Shown here one piece after another: positions 11,545-57,392 of a stretch of 64,000 nucleotides of DNA (its first letter is position 1; each line of letters begins with the position of its first letter). The notes below the pieces were generated by a model. The model did no database searches. It was not told where the DNA came from and saw nothing but the letters and a program-made list of their open reading frames with translations. Origin of the DNA: a virus (taxonomy: Duplodnaviria > Caudoviricetes); the IMG/VR virus record IMGVR_UViG_3300049979_000170, positions 1-64,000 of that record. One strand, 5' to 3'. The position numbers and the translations under genes are program-made.

Positions 11545-12315
11545 TCAGCGATCCACAGAATGCCAGGACACGTACCGGTGGATAGCGGCGAGCCATGCTG
11601 GGAACGCAGCGAGGAACGCCACATCCTGATCCAGCGGGGCATCGGACTTGCGTGCGATCACCTGGGGATACTTCTCAAAGTGTCCACCCACGTACAGAAC
11701 CTCGACCGAACTCCATCCCTGTTCGACCGCGAGGATCACGTCGGACTTCTGGAGGTCGCCGTTGTGGACAAATCCCTCGATCATTCCCTGGAGGGTTTCC
11801 ATCGTCCCGGTCACGTCGTCGAGGTGTTCGATTGGCGGGGCCTGACGCTTGCTTGCACCGCCTGGGAGGCCCTTGGTCTCGGCCGGAGCCGTGTACACGT
11901 ACAGGTGGGTGACCGTGTGGTCGTTGCGGCGCGCTCTGTCTCCGGTCGGCCATGTCCGCTTCGGAGCGGGTGGGCGATCTCCGGCCATCTTCGAGCGCAT
12001 CCAGTCGCGACCACCCTGGGCCATATCGGCGCCTGAGGGGGCGGAATCACCGTTGGTGATCGATCCGGAGAATCCGGCCTTGATCACGTCGTAGGCTGCG
12101 TTAACTTCTGCTGCGGCGTTTCCGTCGCCCCCTGCATCGGGGTGATTCGCCTTGTTCACGGACAGGCGGAACTGCTTTAGGTAGGATGGGTCGCCCATCC
12201 GCTCGGCGTCCGCACCATGCGCGGTGAACACCGCTGCGGCCTGCTGCGGAGTAAGGGCTTCGGCCAGCTTGAGGCGGCCGGACAGTTCAAGCAGACGTAG
12301 GAGCGAAAAGGACAT
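11545..12315 (-). CDS. J-domain (DnaJ-like) protein
   Basis: FRLSVNKANHPDAGGDGNAAAEVNAAYDVIK (HPD motif and helix III); TAAATA 4 nt upstream of ATG. Confidence 0.75.
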   Translation of the reverse strand: MSFSLLRLLELSGRLKLAEALTPQQAAAVFTAHGADAERMGDPSYLKQFRLSVNKANHPDAGGDGNAAAEVNAAYDVIKAGFSGSITNGDSAPSGADMAQGGRDWMRSKMAGDRPPAPKRTWPTGDRARRNDHTVTHLYVYTAPAETKGLPGGASKRQAPPIEHLDDVTGTMETLQGMIEGFVHNGDLQKSDVILAVEQGWSSVEVLYVGGHFEKYPQVIARKSDAPLDQDVAFLAAFPAWLAAIHRYVSWHSVDR

Positions 12316-15366: not shown

Positions 15367-15620
15367 TGGGGTATTCGGTCCAGTTTCCTCCGGCGATCTG
15401 TTTCGATCACTCCGTTCGGTGGCGGAAACGCCCAAAGTTCGTGGACGATCTCGCCCGCCGGGATGCGAAGCTTTGGTGCACCGAACGATTCGGTCCGGAA
15501 CTATCCAAGGAAGAAGTTCGGCAGGGCGCGCTCGTTACCGCGATATGGCGGGCGACGTGGCAGGGCTTCCATTTTCTCCGCCCCGAACACGCTTTCGAAT
15601 TCAAAATGGTCTGGGGCTGA
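15366..15620 (+). CDS. FKMRW-motif small protein
   Basis: LWCTERFG...FLRPEHAFEFKMVWG. Confidence 0.85.
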   Translation: MGYSVQFPPAICFDHSVRWRKRPKFVDDLARRDAKLWCTERFGPELSKEEVRQGALVTAIWRATWQGFHFLRPEHAFEFKMVWG

Positions 15621-15850
15621 TGGCGATCGATCTGAATCGAAATCCTACGATGCGAAGGATCGACAATCCGCATGTCGTTGTGATTCTCCATGCGATATCA
15701 AACACGGAAATCAGAGATATGCGCGAATGGTGCACTGAGTCGAAAAATGCCGGTTTCTTTCTGTACTACTTCGACAAATCTCGTCAAGGCATGGTGTTTG
15801 TGTTCAGCCATGAGAACGTCGCGTTCGAATTCAAGATGAGGTGGGGTTGA
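15620..15850 (+). CDS. FKMRW-motif small protein
   Basis: MREWCTE...FSHENVAFEFKMRWG. Confidence 0.85.
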   Translation: MAIDLNRNPTMRRIDNPHVVVILHAISNTEIRDMREWCTESKNAGFFLYYFDKSRQGMVFVFSHENVAFEFKMRWG

Positions 15851-16068
15851 TGGCTACGCAATCGAGTGAACTCACCCTGAAGCTCGACCTCGGTCGGGAC
15901 GCCTATCCGTTGGTCATCCGCAACGCTCTGGATTGGCTCGATGCCTTGCACTGGATTCTTGATTCGTCACGCCCAGGTCGATTCTCGTATGAACGCCACG
16001 TTGCCGGATGGACTTTCTACGTGACTGACCCCGATACAGCGGTTGAGTTCCGCATGCGGTGGTGCTGA
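15850..16068 (+). CDS. FKMRW-motif small protein
   Basis: ends VTDPDTAVEFRMRWC. Confidence 0.85.
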   Translation: MATQSSELTLKLDLGRDAYPLVIRNALDWLDALHWILDSSRPGRFSYERHVAGWTFYVTDPDTAVEFRMRWC

Positions 16069-25316: not shown

Positions 25317-25891
25317 TCGCTGATTCGGACCTGGGTGAATCCCGCCTTCACGAGAGCGCGTTCTGACGCGTTTACGCACCCGAAGTTCTCACCGGGGCAG
25401 TGCCACGCGCCCGTGACGACGATCGGGTTGTCTGGCTGAAGCTTCATCGCCTTGACTGCTTTGGCTACTTTCGGGGGCCAGTTTGGTGTGAGGTTATCAC
25501 AGGCGAAGATTCGCCCTGCGATGAGCCCGGCATTCTTCGCACGGTGCAGGGCTCCTTCGAGTGCCCGACTGTAGGTCATGTACATGGGGATTTCGTCGCT
25601 CAGTTCCCCATCGACCACGAGGATATGACCGGTCCAGTGGTTGAGTTCGATGATCAATCCGTCGCGTGATGCACGGGCATCGTATCGCCCAAGAAGGTTG
25701 TCGGCTGAGCCGCAGGCTGACCCCGGATGGGTGAGCACCAACAGGGGCACCACGGGCTGTTCCGGAACAGGCTTTGCCTTCGCCGCCTTGGCGGGCTTCA
25801 TAGGCGCTGGTGGGGCTGCTGGGGCGTGCGGGGCGGTGGTGGGTTCGTTCTGCGCGGCTTCGAGCAGATTGATGATCGAGCGAATATCCAT
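25268..25891 (-). CDS. late protein, possible isochorismatase-like cysteine hydrolase
   Basis: TAAATA-N5-ATG; MDIRSIINLLE; Pro/Ala linker; LLVLTHP...IVVTGAW...GCV. Confidence 0.5.
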   Translation of the reverse strand: MDIRSIINLLEAAQNEPTTAPHAPAAPPAPMKPAKAAKAKPVPEQPVVPLLVLTHPGSACGSADNLLGRYDARASRDGLIIELNHWTGHILVVDGELSDEIPMYMTYSRALEGALHRAKNAGLIAGRIFACDNLTPNWPPKVAKAVKAMKLQPDNPIVVTGAWHCPGENFGCVNASERALVKAGFTQVRISDYAVIDPGTGEDEEDD

Positions 25892-25996
25892 ACTCGTATT
25901 TAGAAAAAAATATTGACCGCCGATTCGCCCGATTCGTACAACGCAGGCATTCCACGGCACCCAATTTTTCCATGCATATTTTTAGGCATTTTTCTC

Positions 25997-26611
25997 ATGG
26001 CCCGTCATCATTACCAGAAGTGCAATCCGGAATCTGATTTTGGCTACCGCGACCTCATCTACAAGGTGATGGTCGAGGTTGGTACGCCGATGTTTTCCAA
26101 CGACGTGTGGGCGTACGCGGTCGAGAAGGGTTACGACAAGCTTCTCTATCGGAACGGTGAGACCTTGGCGAAGACCCCGCATGCGACCGTGTATGCGCGG
26201 ATGTCTGAGGAGGCCAAGCGCGGCGGCTTCCTGAAGCGGACCGAGGTGACTGGTCGAGCCTACCTGTACGAGCTTGTGCCGGGCAAGACGCCCAAGAAAG
26301 GGCGCAAGCTCGATTACAAGTCGAAGAACGTCTACGTGTATGCGTTGTACGAGGCGGAGACGGAGATTCCGTTCTACGTCGGCATGGGTGTTGGTCAGCG
26401 CAAGGACGTTCATCTGGTTGGTGAGTCGCACAGCCCGGTGGTGAACAAGGTGGTCTCGCACCTTCGTTCCCAGGGTCGGACTCCGGTGGCGAAGATTCTG
26501 GAGCAGCGTTTGGACCGCCACACTGCTCGGAAGTTTGAGGCCGCTTATATCAAGGAATGGGGGCGTCGCAGTTACGATCTAACTGGCGTTCTGTTTAACC
26601 AAAAAGCTTGA
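25997..26611 (+). CDS. HARE-type winged HTH fused to a GIY-YIG (LEM-3-like) nuclease
   Basis: KTPHATVYARM; YVYALY...PFYVGMG..QRKDVHL...AYI. Confidence 0.7.
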   Translation: MARHHYQKCNPESDFGYRDLIYKVMVEVGTPMFSNDVWAYAVEKGYDKLLYRNGETLAKTPHATVYARMSEEAKRGGFLKRTEVTGRAYLYELVPGKTPKKGRKLDYKSKNVYVYALYEAETEIPFYVGMGVGQRKDVHLVGESHSPVVNKVVSHLRSQGRTPVAKILEQRLDRHTARKFEAAYIKEWGRRSYDLTGVLFNQKA

Positions 26612-26653
26612 TATGCATTGACCTGACGAATCCGCAGCCATATCCCACGGGGT

Positions 26654-26953
26654 ATGGCCGCGTTCGTTCGAACTCCTGCGTTGCAGTTCCCCATCGACCC
26701 CTCTTGGGTCGCGGTGATTCTTCGCCTGAGCAACATGCAGTTGTTCGAGGGTCGCCACGAGGACATCGTGGCGTGGATCGAGACGGACGAGGTTCCTGGG
26801 ACGGTATTTTTCTATCACCGGGAGTGGACTGAGCCTTCGCAAAAGCCGCTCCCCAAGTTCTTCGACCCCAACATGCCCCATAAGGGTCGGGACCACGTTT
26901 ACGTGTTCGACAATCCGGACGCGGCGTTCGAATTCAAGCTTCGGTGGGCCTGA
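26654..26953 (+). CDS. FKMRW-motif small protein
   Basis: ends FDNPDAAFEFKLRWA. Confidence 0.85.
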   Translation: MAAFVRTPALQFPIDPSWVAVILRLSNMQLFEGRHEDIVAWIETDEVPGTVFFYHREWTEPSQKPLPKFFDPNMPHKGRDHVYVFDNPDAAFEFKLRWA

Positions 26954-27219
26954 TGAATTGGAGATTCAAGCTCTACCCTTCTGAGAAGTGGAATTTTCTG
27001 AAACAGCACAATCCGGGAATGGCTCATGCGTTCTGTCCGGATGACAACGAGTTTTGGAAGCACGAGATCGGAGAACGTGAGGACTTGGTGAGTCCCGCCA
27101 TCGCATGGTGCCACGAGCATTTCGGAAAGCCGTTCACCGGGGTGTGGGCGCATTCGAGTTCATGGATTATGTTCGGCGATGACAACCGAGCGTTCGAATT
27201 CAAGCTTCGGTGGGCTTGA
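26953..27219 (+). CDS. FKMRW-motif small protein
   Basis: IAWCHEHFG...FGDDNRAFEFKLRWA; TGATG. Confidence 0.85.
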   Translation: MNWRFKLYPSEKWNFLKQHNPGMAHAFCPDDNEFWKHEIGEREDLVSPAIAWCHEHFGKPFTGVWAHSSSWIMFGDDNRAFEFKLRWA

Positions 27220-27476
27220 TGGCTAAGTGGGTGACTACGGCGGCGACCGCCGACCATCATACCGGGTCCGTTCATGTTCGGATCGAGCGATCGATGTTTT
27301 CGAACGACCTATTGGTTGAGATGGTTTCTTGGTTGGCCAGACACGATCGCCCTGGTAGCTTCTCTTATCGGGACGCCCGGCGAGAACTTAACTTCAACAA
27401 AAAGAAAAATCAGGTTGTGAGTTTCCACATTACCGATCCGGATGTGGCGATGGAATTCAAGATGCGGTGGTTCTGA
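27219..27476 (+). CDS. FKMRW-motif small protein
   Basis: ends ITDPDVAMEFKMRWF; TGATG. Confidence 0.85.
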   Translation: MAKWVTTAATADHHTGSVHVRIERSMFSNDLLVEMVSWLARHDRPGSFSYRDARRELNFNKKKNQVVSFHITDPDVAMEFKMRWF

Positions 27477-27706
27477 TGGCACGGCGGATTGTTCCGAGCG
27501 ACGGCATCGATTTACCTGCGGGGTGCACGAACGTTCGTATACCCCGAGGTCCCGGACGGCCGGGTCGTGCGGAGATGGTCAACTGGTTGATGGAGAATGA
27601 TCGCCCAGGGGTGTTCCGGTACACCCGTATAAACGGCTTCAGCGCGATCTACTTCTATATCTCAGACCCTGGCGTGGCGTTCGAATTCAAGATGCGGTTT
27701 GGCTGA
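27476..27706 (+). CDS. FKMRW-motif small protein
   Basis: ends ISDPGVAFEFKMRFG; close paralog of the previous gene (WL..NDRPG.F.Y). Confidence 0.85.
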   Translation: MARRIVPSDGIDLPAGCTNVRIPRGPGRPGRAEMVNWLMENDRPGVFRYTRINGFSAIYFYISDPGVAFEFKMRFG

Positions 27707-27957
27707 TGGCGACACAATGCCAAGTCCTGCCTGAAGTGCACCGGACGAGCTTCCATTTCCTCCAGGTGGTGGGGCCGCGCTTTTCGTTGTCGAAGGAGCC
27801 GATCCGAGAGTGGCTGAGTAATCCATCTCGGCCGGGCTTCTGGACGTGGGGTGGATGGTGGCTGGCGAGCGAGGGTAACTTCAGCCCGAACGACTGTATC
27901 GAGGTTGCGATCACTGATTCTCAAGTGGCATTCGAGTTTAAAATCCGATGGGTATAA
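27706..27957 (+). CDS. FKMRW-motif small protein
   Basis: ends ITDSQVAFEFKIRWV. Confidence 0.85.
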   Translation: MATQCQVLPEVHRTSFHFLQVVGPRFSLSKEPIREWLSNPSRPGFWTWGGWWLASEGNFSPNDCIEVAITDSQVAFEFKIRWV

Positions 27958-28196
27958 AAGTCCGCCAGATCAAGGTTGATGAGCCCGAGGTGGCCGGTAT
28001 GTACCCGTTTGGTTTCTTTTACATGCACGAGAATCAACGGTGTGACGAGATTATCAAATGGTGTGAGGATCAGTTCGGGGAGTTTTCCTTCAAACACGCG
28101 CGCGGCCGGATGGCCTGTGATATCGGACCGATCCTCCGCTACGTGCTGTTTCGCGATCAATTGGACGCGATTGCGTTCAAGCTCCGGTGGATGTGA
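27948..28196 (+). CDS. FKMRW-motif small protein
   Basis: IIKWCEDQFG...FRDQLDAIAFKLRWM; its ATG lies inside the upstream CGA-TGG (RW) codons. Confidence 0.85.
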   Translation: MGIKVRQIKVDEPEVAGMYPFGFFYMHENQRCDEIIKWCEDQFGEFSFKHARGRMACDIGPILRYVLFRDQLDAIAFKLRWM

Positions 28197-28462
28197 TGGC
28201 AGCGATCGTGAGAGATCAGGGGAAGTTAGGCCCCGGTGCAATCCCGGTCTGGTTCGACTGTTTGAGCCGAGTGGTGTGCCCGATCGACGAGATGATCACT
28301 CCAATGGGCAGCATACTGAGTTGGTGTGTAGATAATTTAGACGGACTTGTTTATTTTGAACTCGATCCCTTCTCCAATAATGATGAACACTATGGGACCA
28401 AATACGTCTTGTGGTTCTCTGACGAAAATGCGGCGTTTGCGTTCAAGATGAGGTGGAAATAA
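28196..28462 (+). CDS. FKMRW-motif small protein
   Basis: ILSWCVDNL...FSDENAAFAFKMRWK. Confidence 0.85.
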   Translation: MAAIVRDQGKLGPGAIPVWFDCLSRVVCPIDEMITPMGSILSWCVDNLDGLVYFELDPFSNNDEHYGTKYVLWFSDENAAFAFKMRWK

Positions 28463-28788
28463 TGTCGAATAAAAGTATGAGGAGATTTAGCGGATTTATC
28501 GGCGAGAAAAAGCTCTCTAAGTTATCGAGGAAAACCGATTTTACATCGGTAACTCTTTACCACGACCTCAAGAATCCGAAAAAGAGTCCGATTCCGGAGA
28601 TTGAAGATTGGTGCAGGACATACGCGGTTGGCCGTATCTGTTATCAGGTGTTTGAGAATTGGGAACCGTATGCGGTATACACACCGGATGGTTCTCAACG
28701 GACTGAATACCGAATAACCGGCCATCGTCATTGTGTGACATTCGAGAATTCGAATGTGGCATTTGCGTTTAAGATGCAATGGGCCTGA
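28462..28788 (+). CDS. FKMRW-motif small protein
   Basis: IEDWCRTY...FENSNVAFAFKMQWA. Confidence 0.85.
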   Translation: MSNKSMRRFSGFIGEKKLSKLSRKTDFTSVTLYHDLKNPKKSPIPEIEDWCRTYAVGRICYQVFENWEPYAVYTPDGSQRTEYRITGHRHCVTFENSNVAFAFKMQWA

Positions 28789-29240
28789 TGGGTTGGCTGA
28801 AGCGGGCTTGGGAATGGCTCCCGCGCATCACGATCCAAAAGAAGCCGTTGTCGCCGGGAAGTCCATCCATTCTGAGGCGGCGAGCGGCCGAGGCCGCCGC
28901 GATGCTCAAGGCCGGTTGCTGGCTCGATCGCGCATCCTACGACGCCCGTGGCCTGCATGTCCCTCTTACGGTGGTGAAGATTCATCGCCGCCAAGAGGAT
29001 GGATTGCTGATCCCCGACTTCATCTCGCTGATCGCCTGGACCGGGGAAAACGTAGAGGGGGAAATCGTCTACGAGGTCATTGACGAGCATGTCGAGGCGG
29101 GCAGCAGCACGATACGTGTCCCTCACAACGGCGGACTTCATACTATCCGAACACCCCGTTATGTCCGGATCGGGTGCTGGCATTCGTTCTCGTTCACCAA
29201 TCCGGATTCGGCGTTCGCGTTCAAGATGCGGTGGGCTTGA
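28788..29240 (+). CDS. FKMRW-motif small protein
   Basis: ends FTNPDSAFAFKMRWA. Confidence 0.85.
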   Translation: MGWLKRAWEWLPRITIQKKPLSPGSPSILRRRAAEAAAMLKAGCWLDRASYDARGLHVPLTVVKIHRRQEDGLLIPDFISLIAWTGENVEGEIVYEVIDEHVEAGSSTIRVPHNGGLHTIRTPRYVRIGCWHSFSFTNPDSAFAFKMRWA

Positions 29241-29290
29241 TTTATTATAGAATACGCGTACATTAGGGGGATCAGCGCAGGAGATTCCCG

Positions 29291-29707
29291 ATGTCCAGTG
29301 TTCCCGAGTTCATCGCCCGCCGCGTCTCCAGCCGGATTTACCCCGGTGGGTTCTACTGGTCGCTGCGCCTCCGTCCGATTCACCCGACCTCGCATTTCGA
29401 GTGGGCTCAGCTTGCCTGGATCAACGGAGAGTGGCGCGCTTGGGGCGACGACGAGGACATGGGTCGGGTCCTGCGGGCGAGCCTGTATGATGTCCGTCGC
29501 GGCACCCTGGAACAGGCTCTGGCGGCATGCCGCACCGCCTACATGCGGTACTGGCACACCGAGACGCCCCCGACAGAGCTTGACGACGAGAACGCCGCGA
29601 TGTCCGCCGAGGAGGCGCGTCACGACTATGAACTCCGCATGGAAGGCCATTTCGATGCAACCGGTCCGGGACAGGATTGGGATGCCAATCACGGGTTCGA
29701 TTGCTGA
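29291..29707 (+). CDS. hypothetical protein
   Basis: GGAG RBS, 138 aa. Confidence 0.7.
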   Translation: MSSVPEFIARRVSSRIYPGGFYWSLRLRPIHPTSHFEWAQLAWINGEWRAWGDDEDMGRVLRASLYDVRRGTLEQALAACRTAYMRYWHTETPPTELDDENAAMSAEEARHDYELRMEGHFDATGPGQDWDANHGFDC

Positions 29708-29718
29708 TGAGGTGGCGC

Positions 29719-30129
29719 ATGGATAAAAAACAGATACTGGCCGCCCGTAAGGCGGCCTTGGACGCGAAGGCTGCACCGAAACCTACGATCATCCACGTTA
29801 AGGCGGGATTGTTCTGGCGCGGGGTTGATCTTGAAACGCTTCCGTTCTTTCAGGAGATCAGATCGGATGATTACGTGGTCCTCGATCACCATTCCTCTGA
29901 GATTCATCGGTGGTGTCTTGCAAATGACCTATTGATTGCGGTCGATTCCGTTAACAAAAAGCAGCGCATTCTCGCCGAAGCAAGGCGACGGTGGAGCCTC
30001 GGGCAAATCACAGCGAATGATGTCGAGCATGAATTCGTTCTCGCTCAGCGGATGTATCCTAACTCGGGATGGTTCATTCGATTCCGTCAAGAAGGTGCCG
30101 ACATGGCCTTAAAGATGCGATGGTTTTAG
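29719..30129 (+). CDS. FKMRW-motif small protein
   Basis: GAGGTGG RBS; IHRWCLAN...FRQEGADMALKMRWF. Confidence 0.8.
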   Translation: MDKKQILAARKAALDAKAAPKPTIIHVKAGLFWRGVDLETLPFFQEIRSDDYVVLDHHSSEIHRWCLANDLLIAVDSVNKKQRILAEARRRWSLGQITANDVEHEFVLAQRMYPNSGWFIRFRQEGADMALKMRWF

Positions 30130-30189
30130 GGAACCTCGGTCGCAACCAATACGTTTTTGCCCGTGCCTGATCTCAAGCATCCGGCACAA

Positions 30190-30252
30190 CAGGGACTCTC
30201 GCCGCTCATCCAAGCTCCCCCTCAAGCCTGAGCGTGCGAGAGTCCTTTCTTT
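30190..30252. terminator. long hairpin between convergent genes
   Basis: GGACTCTCGC-CGCTCA...TGAGCG-T-GCGAGAGTCC followed by TTTCTTTT. Confidence 0.55.
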
Positions 30253-31629
30253 TTAGAGCGTTAGGCGCCAATAGCCGGGTGGGTATACCCCCTCGATCGT
30301 CTTGACCCAATCCGTGCCGTTCCAGCGAAGCTGATTACCCGAGTTGGTATTCAGGACGAAGTCGGCGGTCGTTGAACCGTGGACGGGTGAGAACACCACG
30401 GTCCAGGCGCCGGACCGATACTCGATAATGTCGTTGTGCTTTGCCGTCAGGGCGCCCCAGGCTTGGCTTGGGCCAAGGTCGTGTAGGATGAGATAGCGCT
30501 GGCCGTTGACCTGCCCTGGCAGGCCCTTTCCGGGATAGGTTCGGATCGGATCAATGACGCCGTCAATCGTCCCCTGGGAGTTTGCCGGGAGCGTATCCAG
30601 ATCGACCTGCCAATGGATGATGTTGGGATTCGTCGCATCGTACTGAAGCGTCCCGATGATGTCGTGGCTCCAATCATCGATCTGGTCCGGGCTCGTCTTC
30701 AGGTGAATCTTTGACAGGCCGGGGCGTAGCGTCCCATAGAGGTCGATAAGCTTCTTCCACGGGAAGAAATCTCCTCCCACGTCGGTCTCCGCCCCATCGG
30801 GTCCGAGAAGGCGAATGAGCCCATCGTGCACCTCGATCAGGTTGTTGCCCGGCGTGGTGATATGCTGGAACATGAAGGTCTGATCGGTGATCGCGCCATC
30901 TTCCTCGCGACCGTCATAGACGTTCGTGATGATCTGCTCGATGATGCGCTGCTGCATGACCTTCGCGGGCGGCGAGAGCCAGAATGGGAGGCGGAACGTC
31001 AGCGTGGTCACGTCGATATCTGAATCCACGCCCACGGGGATCGAGCGGGACGACCACTGGATGTCGGTGAGTTCCATCATGGTCATGGCGGTCCAGTCCA
31101 GAGCGTTGTCTGAGTTCTGAATCTGGAAGTCCGGGTACACGACCACGAGAATCTGCTCCATGATCTGGTATTTCTGCTGCTGATTCGATGTCCAGATGTC
31201 CACGTTGACGGTCATCTCGAACGGGCGGGGCATCATGCGCTCGACCGTGTAGGAGCGACCTGGGCGGATACCGGCGGCATCCGTGTACTGTCCCGTGGCT
31301 TCGTCGAAATCACGCTCCAGTACCTGTCTGGTGTCCACGTGTCCGGTATGCTGGAGATCACCGCGTCGTCCAGCTAGACCGACATGCGCGATCGTGATCC
31401 GAGGGGCCGCCATCGCGGTGTTCTCGGAGTTGTTCCGAAGGATATGGCCCACGGTGCGATCCTGAATGGCCATCGAGCAGGGGACCACCTTTAGCTGGGG
31501 TTCAATCACGATTCCGTTCACGACGCGGCGACCGGTCATGTACTGGAACCCTGAGAACGCACGCATCATCTGCTGAAGGAATCGCTCCTGCTGATTATCG
31601 TACCAATAGTCGAGTTGCTGAAGTGCCAC
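30253..31629 (-). CDS. tail completion / sheath stabilizer protein (T4 gp15-like) with a C-terminal extension
   Basis: DYWYD.Q..RFL..., VP...; YTVERMMPRPFEMTVNVDIWTSNQQQKYQIMEQIL; TAAATA at 31657-31662. Confidence 0.7.
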   Translation of the reverse strand: MALQQLDYWYDNQQERFLQQMMRAFSGFQYMTGRRVVNGIVIEPQLKVVPCSMAIQDRTVGHILRNNSENTAMAAPRITIAHVGLAGRRGDLQHTGHVDTRQVLERDFDEATGQYTDAAGIRPGRSYTVERMMPRPFEMTVNVDIWTSNQQQKYQIMEQILVVVYPDFQIQNSDNALDWTAMTMMELTDIQWSSRSIPVGVDSDIDVTTLTFRLPFWLSPPAKVMQQRIIEQIITNVYDGREEDGAITDQTFMFQHITTPGNNLIEVHDGLIRLLGPDGAETDVGGDFFPWKKLIDLYGTLRPGLSKIHLKTSPDQIDDWSHDIIGTLQYDATNPNIIHWQVDLDTLPANSQGTIDGVIDPIRTYPGKGLPGQVNGQRYLILHDLGPSQAWGALTAKHNDIIEYRSGAWTVVFSPVHGSTTADFVLNTNSGNQLRWNGTDWVKTIEGVYPPGYWRLTL

Positions 31630-31716
31630 TTTTAAATCCTCGTTCGGTTATGTGCTTATTTATTGACGCAAACGAGGCGTGATCCTTAATTGGACTGGTT
31701 GATTAAGGAATTTTTC

Positions 31717-32409
31717 ATGTCTTTCGGAATCAGAGTGAGCAATTCAGGTATAACGGTTGGCGCGGCTGTTAGTGTGAAGTCCGCCAAAGCATCGTCAGGC
31801 AGTTGGAATCATCATGCTCCGGCCCCGGCTATCTCTCTGTCGGGCACGCTTGGCAAGAAGGTTCAAAACCGAGTGAAGGCGCTCAAGCGCTCTAAGGTGA
31901 AGGCGGGTGGGGTCGGTGAGCCGATCCAGACGGTGATTCCGGCGGGCTTTGCCTTCATCATGCTGGTTGGTGAGACCATGGAGACCGCGAACTGGCAGTT
32001 CGTGACGTTTGAGTACGGGCGCACCCTTGGTACATCGACGCAGCCCTTCATGGTGTTCAAGGAGATCACCAACGAGATGCACCGATTCTGGAAGCGCGTC
32101 GTCATCGACGGGTCTTTCCAGGCGAACGAGCGCGGCATGTGGATGCGTTCGATGAAGCTGGTTGAGGTCCATCAGTCGGCCAAGGACGTGACCGAACGGC
32201 TGTTCGGCGAGGAGGAGGCGTTCAAGGATTCGATGCGGCTCGGCGCAATGGCCAAGCTCTCTCCCCAGGAGGCGAAGCTGCTCGGCCTAGAGACGGAATA
32301 CACGATGCTCCGGCTTATCCAGACCGGACCCCGCGAAACGGAGGATGACAACCTCGCCAGCACACTTCGGGACTCACTATGCGCGCTTGGACTTGATAAA
32401 TCCATTTGA
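31717..32409 (+). CDS. hypothetical protein
   Basis: AAGGA RBS, 230 aa. Confidence 0.75.
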   Translation: MSFGIRVSNSGITVGAAVSVKSAKASSGSWNHHAPAPAISLSGTLGKKVQNRVKALKRSKVKAGGVGEPIQTVIPAGFAFIMLVGETMETANWQFVTFEYGRTLGTSTQPFMVFKEITNEMHRFWKRVVIDGSFQANERGMWMRSMKLVEVHQSAKDVTERLFGEEEAFKDSMRLGAMAKLSPQEAKLLGLETEYTMLRLIQTGPRETEDDNLASTLRDSLCALGLDKSI

Positions 32410-56626: not shown

Positions 56627-56889
56627 TAGCACCACCGCATTTTGAACTCGAACCCGAACGTCGAGTCTTCAAAATAGAAAACCCCCATCTTGGAATAGTC
56701 CCACGGCTTCGTAACCCCGCTCGGGCCGAACCGCTCCTCGCACCACGCGACGATTTCCTCGACGAACGGCGCGAACTGAGACCGCTGCCCTGGATGGTTC
56801 GACATGGTCTCGCTGAAGCTGGCACGAAACAGCCACATGCCCTCACAGGGGGTATTCTGCTCGATCTCGAAAGTGAAAGGCTGATCCAT
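56626..56889 (-). CDS. FKMRW-motif small protein
   Basis: IVAWCEERFG...FEDSTFGFEFKMRWC. Confidence 0.85.
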   Translation of the reverse strand: MDQPFTFEIEQNTPCEGMWLFRASFSETMSNHPGQRSQFAPFVEEIVAWCEERFGPSGVTKPWDYSKMGVFYFEDSTFGFEFKMRWC

Positions 56890-57290
56890 CAGTCCACCTT
56901 CCCGGAAATTTTTTGGGCGACCCACATCGCAGGGAAGTCCTTGGAGAGCATCGTAACCTTCTGGTTAACGACAACTGTTCGACCGGTCCGACTGCGGATG
57001 GTAAGCGGCGAGAGCGTGAACATATCAAACGCCTCGATGAGATCGCGTGCCGACCAGATCGTATCGTCCGGGACCTTCCATTCCATAGAGGCGGTCCAGC
57101 CATGGCAGAGGTCTTTCGAACCCCGATCGTACCATGTATTGTCAATCTCACCATCTGGTCCCACCGGAATCGTCTCGGACCGGAGAATGTTCGAAAAGAC
57201 CACACTGGACATCGGAGTATTCTGGACCAGCCACGCAGCGATGCCGCTGAATGAGCACTGCCTACGAAGAGAGTCCCCAAGGTCTTCCAT
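56889..57290 (-). CDS. hypothetical protein
   Basis: TGATG-coupled. Confidence 0.65.
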   Translation of the reverse strand: MEDLGDSLRRQCSFSGIAAWLVQNTPMSSVVFSNILRSETIPVGPDGEIDNTWYDRGSKDLCHGWTASMEWKVPDDTIWSARDLIEAFDMFTLSPLTIRSRTGRTVVVNQKVTMLSKDFPAMWVAQKISGKVD

Positions 57291-57392
57291 GAACGCTCCA
57301 TAAAATGGTAGAATCAATCCTATGAGTTTGCCACAGAACGATTTTCGGTCTACTAAAATCTGACTCCAACCCTACGGCATAGTTAACGCGTC

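What the first reader, a model, noticed from the sequence alone, without database searches (positions are those of the whole stretch)
26654..29240. The family's terminal codons double as the ribosome-binding site and start of the next gene
Seen: in tandem runs the R-W-x-stop codons read (A/C)GG-TGG-NNN-TGATG, -TAATG or -ATGA. This puts GGTG/GAGGTG about 6 nt before the next ATG (e.g. 15850, 26953, 27219, 27476, 28462). At 27948 the next ATG lies inside CGA-TGG itself. A 26-nt exact repeat, GCGTTCGAATTCAAGCTTCGGTGGGC, is at 26924-26949 and 27190-27215. Established: GGTG/AGGTG pairs with the 16S rRNA 3' tail (CACCUCC), and TGATG/ATGA overlaps give translational coupling. Inference: the shared 3' end could serve as a recombination handle plus a built-in RBS, so any gene swapped in behind it is expressed at once. 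That would be an integrase-free cassette array explaining the accordion-like expansion.
Basis: partly seen in the sequence, partly recalled or inferred. Interest (0 to 1): 0.72.

Follow-up and report, generated by a model that had tools for sequence, protein, structure and literature searches.

The report
Protein tail codons double as ribosome-binding site
In a giant phage, a hugely expanded family of small genes ends in Arg-Trp codons, and wherever the next gene's start overlaps the stop the Arg is spelled AGG/CGG, which forms a ribosome-binding site; this is a clean but mechanistically ordinary case of translational coupling, and nothing supports the proposed cassette-swapping system.

Summary
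Window 26654-29240 holds nine head-to-tail genes of one family ending ...AFxFK(M/L)RWx-stop. The contig is a 75-kb fragment of a jumbo phage and holds 59 members. The junctions read (A/C)GG-TGG-NNN-TGATG, TAATG or ATGA as described, and the 26-nt repeat is exact.

The ribosome-binding-site reading is statistically supported.
- Where the next start overlaps the stop, 21 of 24 Arg codons are AGG/CGG. In uncoupled members it is 2 of 11 (Fisher 1.4e-4).
- Background use of AGG/CGG is 30%. AGG alone is 11 of 24 against 5.6% background.
- The pattern replicates in other phage contigs. Pooled counts are 42/48 versus 10/41 (p = 1.3e-9).
- Predicted pairing to the 16S rRNA tail is -7.8 kcal/mol for coupled tails and -4.0 for uncoupled ones.

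Arg-Trp itself is kept in both classes. It lies in a confidently modelled C-terminal helix. So the protein constrains the residues, and only the synonymous spelling tracks coupling.

The recombination-handle, cassette and accordion reading is not supported.
- Identical peptides plus codon bias give a 26-nt or longer match in 12.5% of simulations.
- Paralogues share at most about 45% identity outside the tail, so no duplication is recent.
- The junctions have no room for recombination sites.
- No close relative was available to map breakpoints.

The mechanism is already known in kind. Interest is low to moderate.

The parts
26654..26953 (+). Family member 1 (99 aa), first gene of the run. Its tail CGG-TGG lies at 26942-26947. 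The stop TGA at 26951-26953 shares its A with the next ATG (26953).
26953..27219 (+). Family member 2 (88 aa). Tail CGG-TGG at 27208-27213. TGATG junction, next ATG at 27219. It carries the second copy of the 26-nt repeat (27190-27215); the first copy is at 26924-26949.
27219..27476 (+). Family member 3 (85 aa). Tail CGG-TGG at 27465-27470. TGATG junction, next ATG at 27476.
27476..27706 (+). Family member 4 (76 aa). It ends Arg-Phe-Gly (CGG-TTT-GGC), so it has no GGTGG. TGATG junction, next ATG at 27706.
27706..27957 (+). Family member 5 (83 aa). In its tail CGA-TGG (27946-27951) the A-TG forms the candidate start of the next gene at 27948.
27948..28196 (+). Family member 6 (82 aa from ATG 27948, or 65 aa from the alternative ATG 27999 behind GAGGTGG). 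Tail CGG-TGG at 28185-28190. TGATG junction, next ATG at 28196.
28196..28462 (+). Family member 7 (88 aa). The tail ATG-AGG-TGG gives GAGGTGG at 28450-28456. TAATG junction, next ATG at 28462.
28462..28788 (+). Family member 8 (108 aa). It ends Gln-Trp-Ala (CAA-TGG-GCC). ATGs for the next gene lie at 28779 (inside CAA-TGG) and at 28788 (TGATG).
28779..29240 (+). Family member 9 (153 or 150 aa), last gene of the run. Its tail is CGG-TGG (29229-29234), but the next start is 53 nt away and has its own AGGAGA.
29707..30129 (+). Family member 10 (140 aa). It is coupled by TGATG to the non-family gene 29291-29707. Its own tail is CGA-TGG-TTT-TAG and no gene follows on that strand.
15620..16068 (+). 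Member 15620-15850 ends ATG-AGG-TGG-GGT-TGATG, giving GAGGTGG 6 nt before the ATG at 15850 of member 15850-16068.

Best explanation
The genes belong to one very large, uncharacterised family of small alpha/beta proteins of giant phages. The family's C-terminal helix ends ...F-K-(M/L)-R-W-x, exactly one residue before the stop.

Arg-Trp is kept for the protein's sake. Because Trp is TGG and lies two codons before the stop, spelling Arg as CGG or AGG creates CGGUGG or, after a codon ending in G, GAGGUGG. These pair with the 3' tail of 16S rRNA. The element sits 3-6 nt before a start codon that overlaps the stop (AUGA, UGAUG, UAAUG).

Selection on this one synonymous site has turned the tail into the Shine-Dalgarno element of whichever gene follows. 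Ribosomes finishing one cistron, or newly recruited ones, can then initiate efficiently on the next. Expression is therefore sustained along runs of up to nine cistrons that have no internal promoter-like sites.

A second solution is Arg spelled CGA or AGA, which places an AUG inside the Arg-Trp codons themselves.

Shown here: the junction anatomy, the coupling-dependent codon choice, its replication in other phages, and the predicted pairing energies. Inferred: that the element works as a ribosome-binding site in the unknown host, and that selection rather than ancestry maintains it.
For: (1) Codon choice depends on coupling. In the 75-kb contig, 21 of 24 Arg-Trp tails with a start at -1 or +2 use AGG/CGG. 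Only 2 of 11 uncoupled tails do (Fisher 1.4e-4). Background AGG/CGG use is 30%. AGG alone is 11 of 24 against 5.6% (2e-8). Internal Arg-Trp dipeptides elsewhere use CGC 16, CGG 5 and AGG 0 of 25.

(2) Independent replication. The 608-kb relative plus Sinorhizobium phage Phosso give 3/3 versus 0/9. Eighteen loci from eight other IMG/VR viral contigs give 18/21 versus 8/21, p = 0.0036 (three of these members lie in the 608-kb relative and also enter the tallies). Pooled counts are 42/48 versus 10/41, p = 1.3e-9.

(3) Pairing energy. Duplex energy of the last 15 nt with the anti-SD is -7.7 to -7.8 kcal/mol for coupled tails and -4.0 for uncoupled tails (Mann-Whitney 3.5e-5). Random positions give -4.2. 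GAGGTGG alone gives -10.3 and CGGTGG -6.4.

(4) Extension of the element. AGG is preceded by a codon ending in G in 10 of 11 cases. Leu before AGG is CTG in 3 of 3 cases. Leu before CGG is CTT or CTC in 5 of 5 cases.

(5) The residues are a protein constraint. Arg-Trp is conserved in uncoupled members too. It lies in a C-terminal helix of a confident AlphaFold model (pLDDT 88 overall, 93-95 at the end).

(6) One transcription unit is plausible. The region 25800-30400 has no sigma-70-like promoter sites and no excess of terminator-like sites.

(7) Literature. Downstream genes of overlapping pairs are typically preceded by an SD inside the upstream gene. Removing that SD lowered reinitiation in 4 of 5 E. 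coli pairs (PMC6728339).
Against: There is no expression data, and the host and its 16S 3' end are unknown.

SD use in this phage is otherwise weak. Starts of non-family genes average -5.0 kcal/mol. Fourteen overlapped junctions behind non-family genes average -4.4, which is close to random. Coupling here evidently does not require an SD.

Three coupled tails use CGC or CGT, and two run-terminal tails keep CGG.

Neighbouring synonymous sites are somewhat more alike among coupled members (0.63) than among uncoupled ones (0.48). Some shared ancestry of the tails therefore cannot be excluded.

Gene starts were assigned by rule, not by experiment.
Confidence: 0.75

Rival explanations
1. Recombination handle and integrase-free cassette array. 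The shared 3' nucleotides act as a substrate for exchange that inserts, deletes or swaps whole genes, each arriving behind a ready-made ribosome-binding site. This would produce accordion-like expansion.
For: Identical stretches of 17-26 nt do exist between tails.

The slot holding this run, between the sheath-completion-like gene and the tRNA cluster, has different content in the 608-kb relative.

About half of the detectable nearest paralogues are not adjacent.

No member has a clear orthologue in the relative.
Against: The long identical runs are no more frequent or longer than codon resampling predicts. The maximum is 26 nt or more in 12.5% of simulations. Pairs with 17 nt or more number 13 observed against 10.9 expected.

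No two members are recent copies; identity outside the tail is at most about 45%.

The junctions overlap, so there is no intergenic room for a recombination site.

Most downstream genes are family members that share the whole domain, not foreign cassettes.

No promoter-terminator cassette of the PeSL type is present.
Confidence: 0.08
2. The AGG/CGG bias is inherited, not selected. Tandem duplication or gene conversion copied whole junctions, so coupled tails look alike through ancestry.
For: Synonymous identity at flanking control codons is higher within coupled members (0.63) than within uncoupled ones (0.48).

Adjacent genes are each other's nearest paralogue in 14 of 26 cases.
Against: Bodies are so diverged that synonymous sites should be saturated.

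The same association appears in unrelated contigs with GC content from 36% to 64%.

The rare codon AGG is enriched about eight-fold, and specifically after a G.

Long identical runs are not in excess.
Confidence: 0.1
3. Coupling works purely by termination-reinitiation without any SD contribution. The GG-ending Arg codons would then be favoured for another reason linked to overlap, such as local mRNA structure or decoding speed near the stop.
For: Other overlapped junctions in the same contig lack SD-like sequence.

The contribution of the SD to reinitiation varies from none to essential between gene pairs (PMC6728339).
Against: The favoured spellings are exactly those that extend complementarity to the anti-SD (GAGGTGG). 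The neighbouring Leu codon co-varies to supply the G. The spacing of 3-6 nt is in the functional range. No alternative cause is evident.
Confidence: 0.07

Closest known systems
Translational coupling of overlapping gene pairs with an intragenic Shine-Dalgarno (termination-reinitiation; Huber et al. 2019, PMC6728339)
   Same: Co-directional genes have ATGA or TGATG stop/start overlaps. The SD lies in the 3' end of the upstream gene at functional spacing.
   Different: Here the SD is built from two conserved residues of one protein family. The same solution therefore recurs at dozens of junctions. It is visible as a switch in one synonymous codon between coupled and uncoupled paralogues.
Codon usage at gene ends shaped by the downstream gene's ribosome-binding site (Eyre-Walker 1996, J Mol Evol; recalled from my own knowledge, not read here)
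   Same: Synonymous codon choice near a stop codon is biased by the need to encode the next gene's SD.
   Different: That work describes a genome-wide statistical trend. This is a within-family natural experiment with paralogous controls.
PeSL mobile regulatory cassettes of T4-type phages (Arbiol et al. 2010, PMC2839356; Comeau et al. 2014, PMC4122927)
   Same: Short repeated expression signals between small non-essential genes in plastic regions mediate modular shuffling.
   Different: PeSLs are intergenic promoter plus stem-loop terminator elements with demonstrated recombination products. Here there is no intergenic DNA, no promoter or terminator, and no nucleotide identity beyond coding need.
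Integron gene cassettes
   Same: Arrays of small same-strand genes are expressed from one end.
   Different: Integrons need attC inverted repeats and an integrase. Neither is present, and the genes here are paralogues of each other.
Gene accordions (recent tandem amplification, as for poxvirus K3L; recalled from my own knowledge)
   Same: Tandem paralogue arrays occur in a large DNA virus.
   Different: Accordions consist of near-identical recent copies. These copies share at most about 45% identity outside the tail.

Membership tests
Overlapping, translationally coupled gene pairs with intragenic SD | Co-directional genes whose stop and start overlap (ATGA, TGATG or TAATG) | tested here: met
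   39 of the 59 family members in the contig have a downstream start at -7, -1 or +2. Depositors' annotation of the cultured phage Phosso shows the same 4-nt overlaps.
Overlapping, translationally coupled gene pairs with intragenic SD | SD-like sequence in the 3' end of the upstream gene at functional spacing | tested here: met
   GGTGG or GAGGTGG lies 3-6 nt before the start. Mean duplex energy is -7.8 kcal/mol, against -4.0 for uncoupled tails and -4.2 for random positions.
Overlapping, translationally coupled gene pairs with intragenic SD | Downstream translation depends on upstream translation and/or on the SD | not testable with these tools
   This needs reporter fusions or ribosome profiling.
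PeSL-type mobile regulatory cassettes | Intergenic sigma-70-like promoter followed by a terminator stem-loop | tested here: not met
   The region 25800-30400 has 0 promoter-like sites (3.1 expected) and 4 weak terminator-like sites (5.4 expected). The junctions have no intergenic DNA.
PeSL-type mobile regulatory cassettes | Repeated nucleotide sequence that serves as a recombination substrate, seen as indel breakpoints between close relatives | tested here: inconclusive
   Identity is not in excess of coding need.
Integron cassette array | attC recombination sites between cassettes, and an integrase | tested here: not met
Genes overlap or abut, so there is no space for attC. No integrase was sought beyond the run.
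Gene accordion (recent tandem amplification) | Near-identical tandem copies | tested here: not met
   The best N-terminal identity between any two members is 47.6% over 21 aa; the best longer match is 43% over 46 aa. Most pairs are undetectable.
Catalogued protein families (Pfam, PHROGs, NCBIfam) for the repeated gene | Significant profile match | tested here: not met
   No hit passes threshold in Pfam, PHROGs or NCBIfam. Foldseek gives E of 0.9 or worse, and VIA-align gives Z of 4.9 or less.

The most novel reading that the evidence does not exclude
The fixed Arg-Trp-x-stop tail is a dual-purpose module that makes every tandem duplicate self-expressing. Microhomology-mediated unequal exchange at the 17-26-nt stretches it shares then adds, removes or reorders whole genes, always in frame and always coupled. 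This would explain why the family reaches about 59 copies in 75 kb here.
Probability: 0.12. Interest if true: 0.55.

Novelty: new member of a known kind. Interest (0 to 1): 0.3.

Why it matters
The case gives an unusually clean natural experiment for dual coding. Dozens of paralogues keep the same two residues but switch one synonymous codon according to whether a gene is coupled behind them. That is direct evidence for selection on an intragenic ribosome-binding site in a phage whose other genes make little use of one.

It also helps annotation. The correct starts in these arrays are the ATGs at -1 or +2, not the GTG at -7 that longest-ORF rules pick.

It does not reveal a new gene-mobility mechanism.

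The larger open question is what this abundant, uncharacterised family does. It has 1234 cluster representatives in public data and 33-59 copies per giant-phage genome or fragment.

Tried and rejected
Relatives and breakpoints:
- A metagenome scan with gene 7 found no relative.
- megablast of 26000-32000 against GenBank phages found nothing.
- A word-indexed protein search with gene 2 found only itself.
- Five other family-bearing contigs lack a closer copy of the flanking sheath-completion-like gene. Syntenic breakpoint mapping was therefore not possible.

Function of the family:
- Pfam, PHROGs and NCBIfam gave no family.
- The ESM Atlas gave only unnamed viral clusters.
- Foldseek and VIA-align gave only generic two-layer alpha/beta matches.
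- The jumbo-phage comparative paper PMC7824862 does not mention this family in the passages searched.

Ideas considered and dropped:
- The 26-nt repeat as evidence of gene conversion. Codon resampling reaches 26 nt or more in 12.5% of simulations, so the repeat needs no such explanation.
- The TTCGAA, GAATTC and AAGCTT sites in the repeat as a cloning artefact. They are simply the codons for Phe-Glu-Phe-Lys-Leu, in frame.
- GGTGG as a Chi-like recombination hotspot. Only the 3' pentamer of the E. coli octamer is present, and Chi sequences are host-specific.
- Intragenic SDs as a general feature of overlapped junctions in this phage. Non-family junctions average -4.4 kcal/mol, which is like random sequence.
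Full report
**Context.** The window is the first 64 kb of a 75,026-bp IMG/VR viral contig that CheckV rates as 17% complete. It has 55% GC and six tRNA genes. The sheath-completion-like gene at 30253-31629 (-) is 41-42% identical to those of Sinorhizobium phage Phosso (469 kb) and Agrobacterium phage Atu_ph07 (490 kb). It is 53% identical to that of a 608-kb IMG/VR contig. The source is therefore a fragment of a giant phage of that group. The host is unknown.

**What is at 26654-29240.** Nine same-strand genes of 76-153 aa abut or overlap. A tenth family member follows at 29707-30129, behind one non-family gene.
- All ten end in variants of (D/N)xxxAFxFK(M/L)RWx-stop.
- A six-frame motif scan finds 24 strict copies in the window.
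- An iterated HMM finds 59 members in the 75-kb contig, on both strands and in about a dozen runs.

The similarity is not confined to the tail. An alignment shows a nearly invariant central Trp, often within W-C-x-E-x-F-G, about 40 residues upstream of the tail. An AlphaFold model built on 125 homologues is confident (mean pLDDT 88). It shows a beta-alpha-beta-alpha-beta-beta-alpha domain whose last helix is the AFxFKMRW segment, with pLDDT 93-95. The tail is thus an integral part of a protein fold.

**The family is widespread but uncharacterised.**
- It matches nothing in Pfam, PHROGs or NCBIfam.
- It matches no solved structure: Foldseek E of 0.9 or worse, VIA-align Z of 4.9 or less.
- It has 1234 cluster representatives at E of 0.001 or better among 1.84 billion proteins.
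- It has at least 46 copies in the 608-kb relative.
- It has at least 33 copies in Phosso and none in Atu_ph07.

**Check of the observation.**
- The tails read CGG-TGG-NNN-TGATG at 26951, 27217, 27474 and 28194.
- The tail reads AGG-TGG-AAA-TAATG at 28460 and AGG-TGG-GGT-TGATG at 15848.
- The ATG at 27948 lies inside CGA-TGG.
- The 26-nt repeat is exact at 26924-26949 and 27190-27215.

One caveat applies. Gene 6 has an alternative in-frame ATG at 27999, preceded by GAGGTGG and a 5-nt spacer, so its start is ambiguous.

I classified the 41 members that end Arg-Trp-x-stop by whether a downstream open frame starts at -1 or +2 (coupled), at an ATG at -7, or further away or not at all (uncoupled).

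| Class | AGG | CGG | CGA | AGA | CGC | CGT |
|---|---|---|---|---|---|---|
| Coupled, start at -1 or +2 (n = 24) | 11 | 10 | 0 | 0 | 2 | 1 |
| ATG at -7 (n = 6) | 0 | 0 | 4 | 2 | 0 | 0 |
| Uncoupled (n = 11) | 0 | 2 | 2 | 1 | 3 | 3 |

- Coupled against uncoupled gives Fisher p = 1.4e-4.
- Genome-wide, AGG/CGG make up 30% of Arg codons and AGG alone 5.6%. The coupled tails are enriched at p = 6e-9 for AGG/CGG and p = 2e-8 for AGG.
- Arg codons before internal Trp codons elsewhere are CGC 16, CGG 5 and AGG 0 of 25.
- AGG follows a codon ending in G in 10 of 11 cases, which yields GAGGTGG. The Leu codon before AGG is CTG in 3 of 3 cases, while before CGG it is CTT or CTC in 5 of 5 cases.
- Predicted duplex energy of the last 15 nt with a generic 16S 3' tail averages -7.7 to -7.8 kcal/mol for coupled tails and -4.0 for uncoupled ones (p = 3.5e-5). 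Random positions give -4.2.

**Replication.**
- In the 608-kb relative and Phosso, few members end Arg-Trp. Coupled ones are 3/3 AGG/CGG and uncoupled ones 0/9.
- An unbiased DNA pattern that allows all six Arg codons retrieved 18 loci from eight other viral contigs, one of them the 608-kb relative (GC 36-64%). There, coupled tails are 18/21 AGG/CGG and uncoupled tails 8/21 (p = 0.0036).
- Pooled counts are 42/48 against 10/41 (p = 1.3e-9). The external data alone give p = 8e-6.
- Phosso's deposited annotation independently-nt overlaps at such junctions.

**Caveats on the ribosome-binding-site reading.**
- Flanking synonymous sites are modestly more alike among coupled members (0.63) than among uncoupled ones (0.48). 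Some shared history of the tails cannot be ruled out. The Arg site differs far more sharply: identity between the two classes is 0.11.
- The phage otherwise uses little SD. Non-family starts average -5.0 kcal/mol, and many sit 4-8 nt behind a TAAATA box. Fourteen overlapped junctions behind non-family genes average -4.4. The family tail is therefore the main source of strong intragenic SDs in this contig, and coupling as such does not require one.
- One rationale, which is inference: in chains of up to nine cistrons, losses at each reinitiation step multiply. A strong SD at every junction would keep distal genes expressed.
- The run has no sigma-70-like promoter sites and no excess of terminator-like sites. 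This is consistent with a single transcript.

**The recombination-handle, cassette and accordion reading.** Four tests bear on it.
1. Nucleotide identity. I resampled synonymous codons from the contig's own usage for the same 59 tail peptides. The longest shared run averaged 22 nt and reached 26 nt or more in 12.5% of 200 simulations. Pairs sharing 17 nt or more number 13 observed against 10.9 expected, with a 5-95% range of 5-18. The repeat therefore needs no explanation beyond an identical peptide plus codon bias.
2. Age of copies. Outside the tail the best identity between any two members is 43% over 46 aa, with one 48% match over only 21 aa, and most pairs are undetectable. Of the 26 members with a significant paralogue, 14 have it within two positions. 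This points to old tandem duplication and divergence with some dispersal, not a currently breathing accordion.
3. Anatomy. Junctions overlap, so there is no intergenic room for attC-like or PeSL-like elements. No promoter-terminator cassettes are found. PeSLs are the documented precedent for expression signals that act as recombination handles in T4-type phages (PMC2839356).
4. Synteny. In the 608-kb relative, the slot between the sheath-completion-like gene and the tRNA cluster holds unrelated ORFs and no family member. No window member has a clear orthologue there; best hits are at most 41% identical, no better than paralogues. This shows fast divergence or turnover, but at this distance breakpoints cannot be located.

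Closer relatives were not obtainable. The idea is therefore unsupported rather than disproved.

**Comparison with what is known.** Overlapping ATGA or TGATG pairs with an SD inside the upstream gene are near-universal in bacteria. Removing that SD reduces reinitiation in most E. coli pairs tested (PMC6728339). An effect of the downstream ribosome-binding site on codon use at gene ends has also been described (Eyre-Walker 1996, from memory). This finding is a striking instance of that known mechanism. It is special only in that one conserved dipeptide supplies the SD at dozens of junctions, and that paralogues provide built-in controls.

**Verdict.**
- Observation: confirmed.
- Interpretation: partly supported. 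The ribosome-binding site and coupling are supported; the cassette system is not.
- Novelty: a new member of a known kind.
- Interest: about 0.3.
- The uncharacterised, massively expanded protein family is the more intriguing object, but it is a separate finding.

Noticed in passing
window-wide, e.g. starts at 12315(-), 16147(+), 25960(-), 34007(+), 39770(-), 40537(+), 52071(-): Many larger non-family genes have a T4-late-promoter-like TAAATA or ATAAATA box ending only 4-8 nt before the ATG, with no SD. This suggests late transcripts with very short or absent leaders.
   Followed up: no
window 27999: Gene 6 has an alternative in-frame ATG, preceded by GAGGTGG and a 5-nt spacer. The start inside CGA-TGG at 27948 is therefore not the only candidate.
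   Followed up: partly
proteins P0002, P0003, P0005 (metagenomic homologues): Some homologues are two family domains fused in one ORF, with an internal ...FKMRW/FKLRW motif followed directly by a second domain. Neighbouring cistrons appear to have merged by loss of the stop.
   Followed up: no
contig beyond the window: G000 70405-70889 and 72017-73153: Two convergent family genes end with abutting stop codons at 70671-70675. A 377-aa protein carries the family tail at its C-terminus, so larger proteins can end in the same module.
   Followed up: no
window 26924-26949 and 27190-27215: The 26-nt repeat contains adjacent TTCGAA, GAATTC and AAGCTT restriction sites and looks like a polylinker. It is simply the in-frame codons for Phe-Glu-Phe-Lys-Leu.
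   Followed up: yes
Phosso (PV764938.1) versus Atu_ph07 (NC_042013.1): The family has at least 33 copies in Sinorhizobium phage Phosso and none detectable in the related Agrobacterium phage Atu_ph07. In Phosso and the 608-kb relative the tail is more often FKL(T/A/W)(W/F) and the genes are more scattered.
   Followed up: partly
L008 11270-13468 (-), 608-kb relative: The slot that holds the family run in this phage is occupied in the relative by a 732-aa ORF. That ORF appears to be made of many repeats of a short helix-turn-helix-like unit.
   Followed up: no
window 56889-57317(-) / 56629-56889(-): A non-family gene ends ...GGG-AAG-GTG-GAC-TGATG, giving AAGGTGGA (-11.2 kcal/mol) before a family gene. 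It is the one non-family junction with the same architecture.
   Followed up: partly
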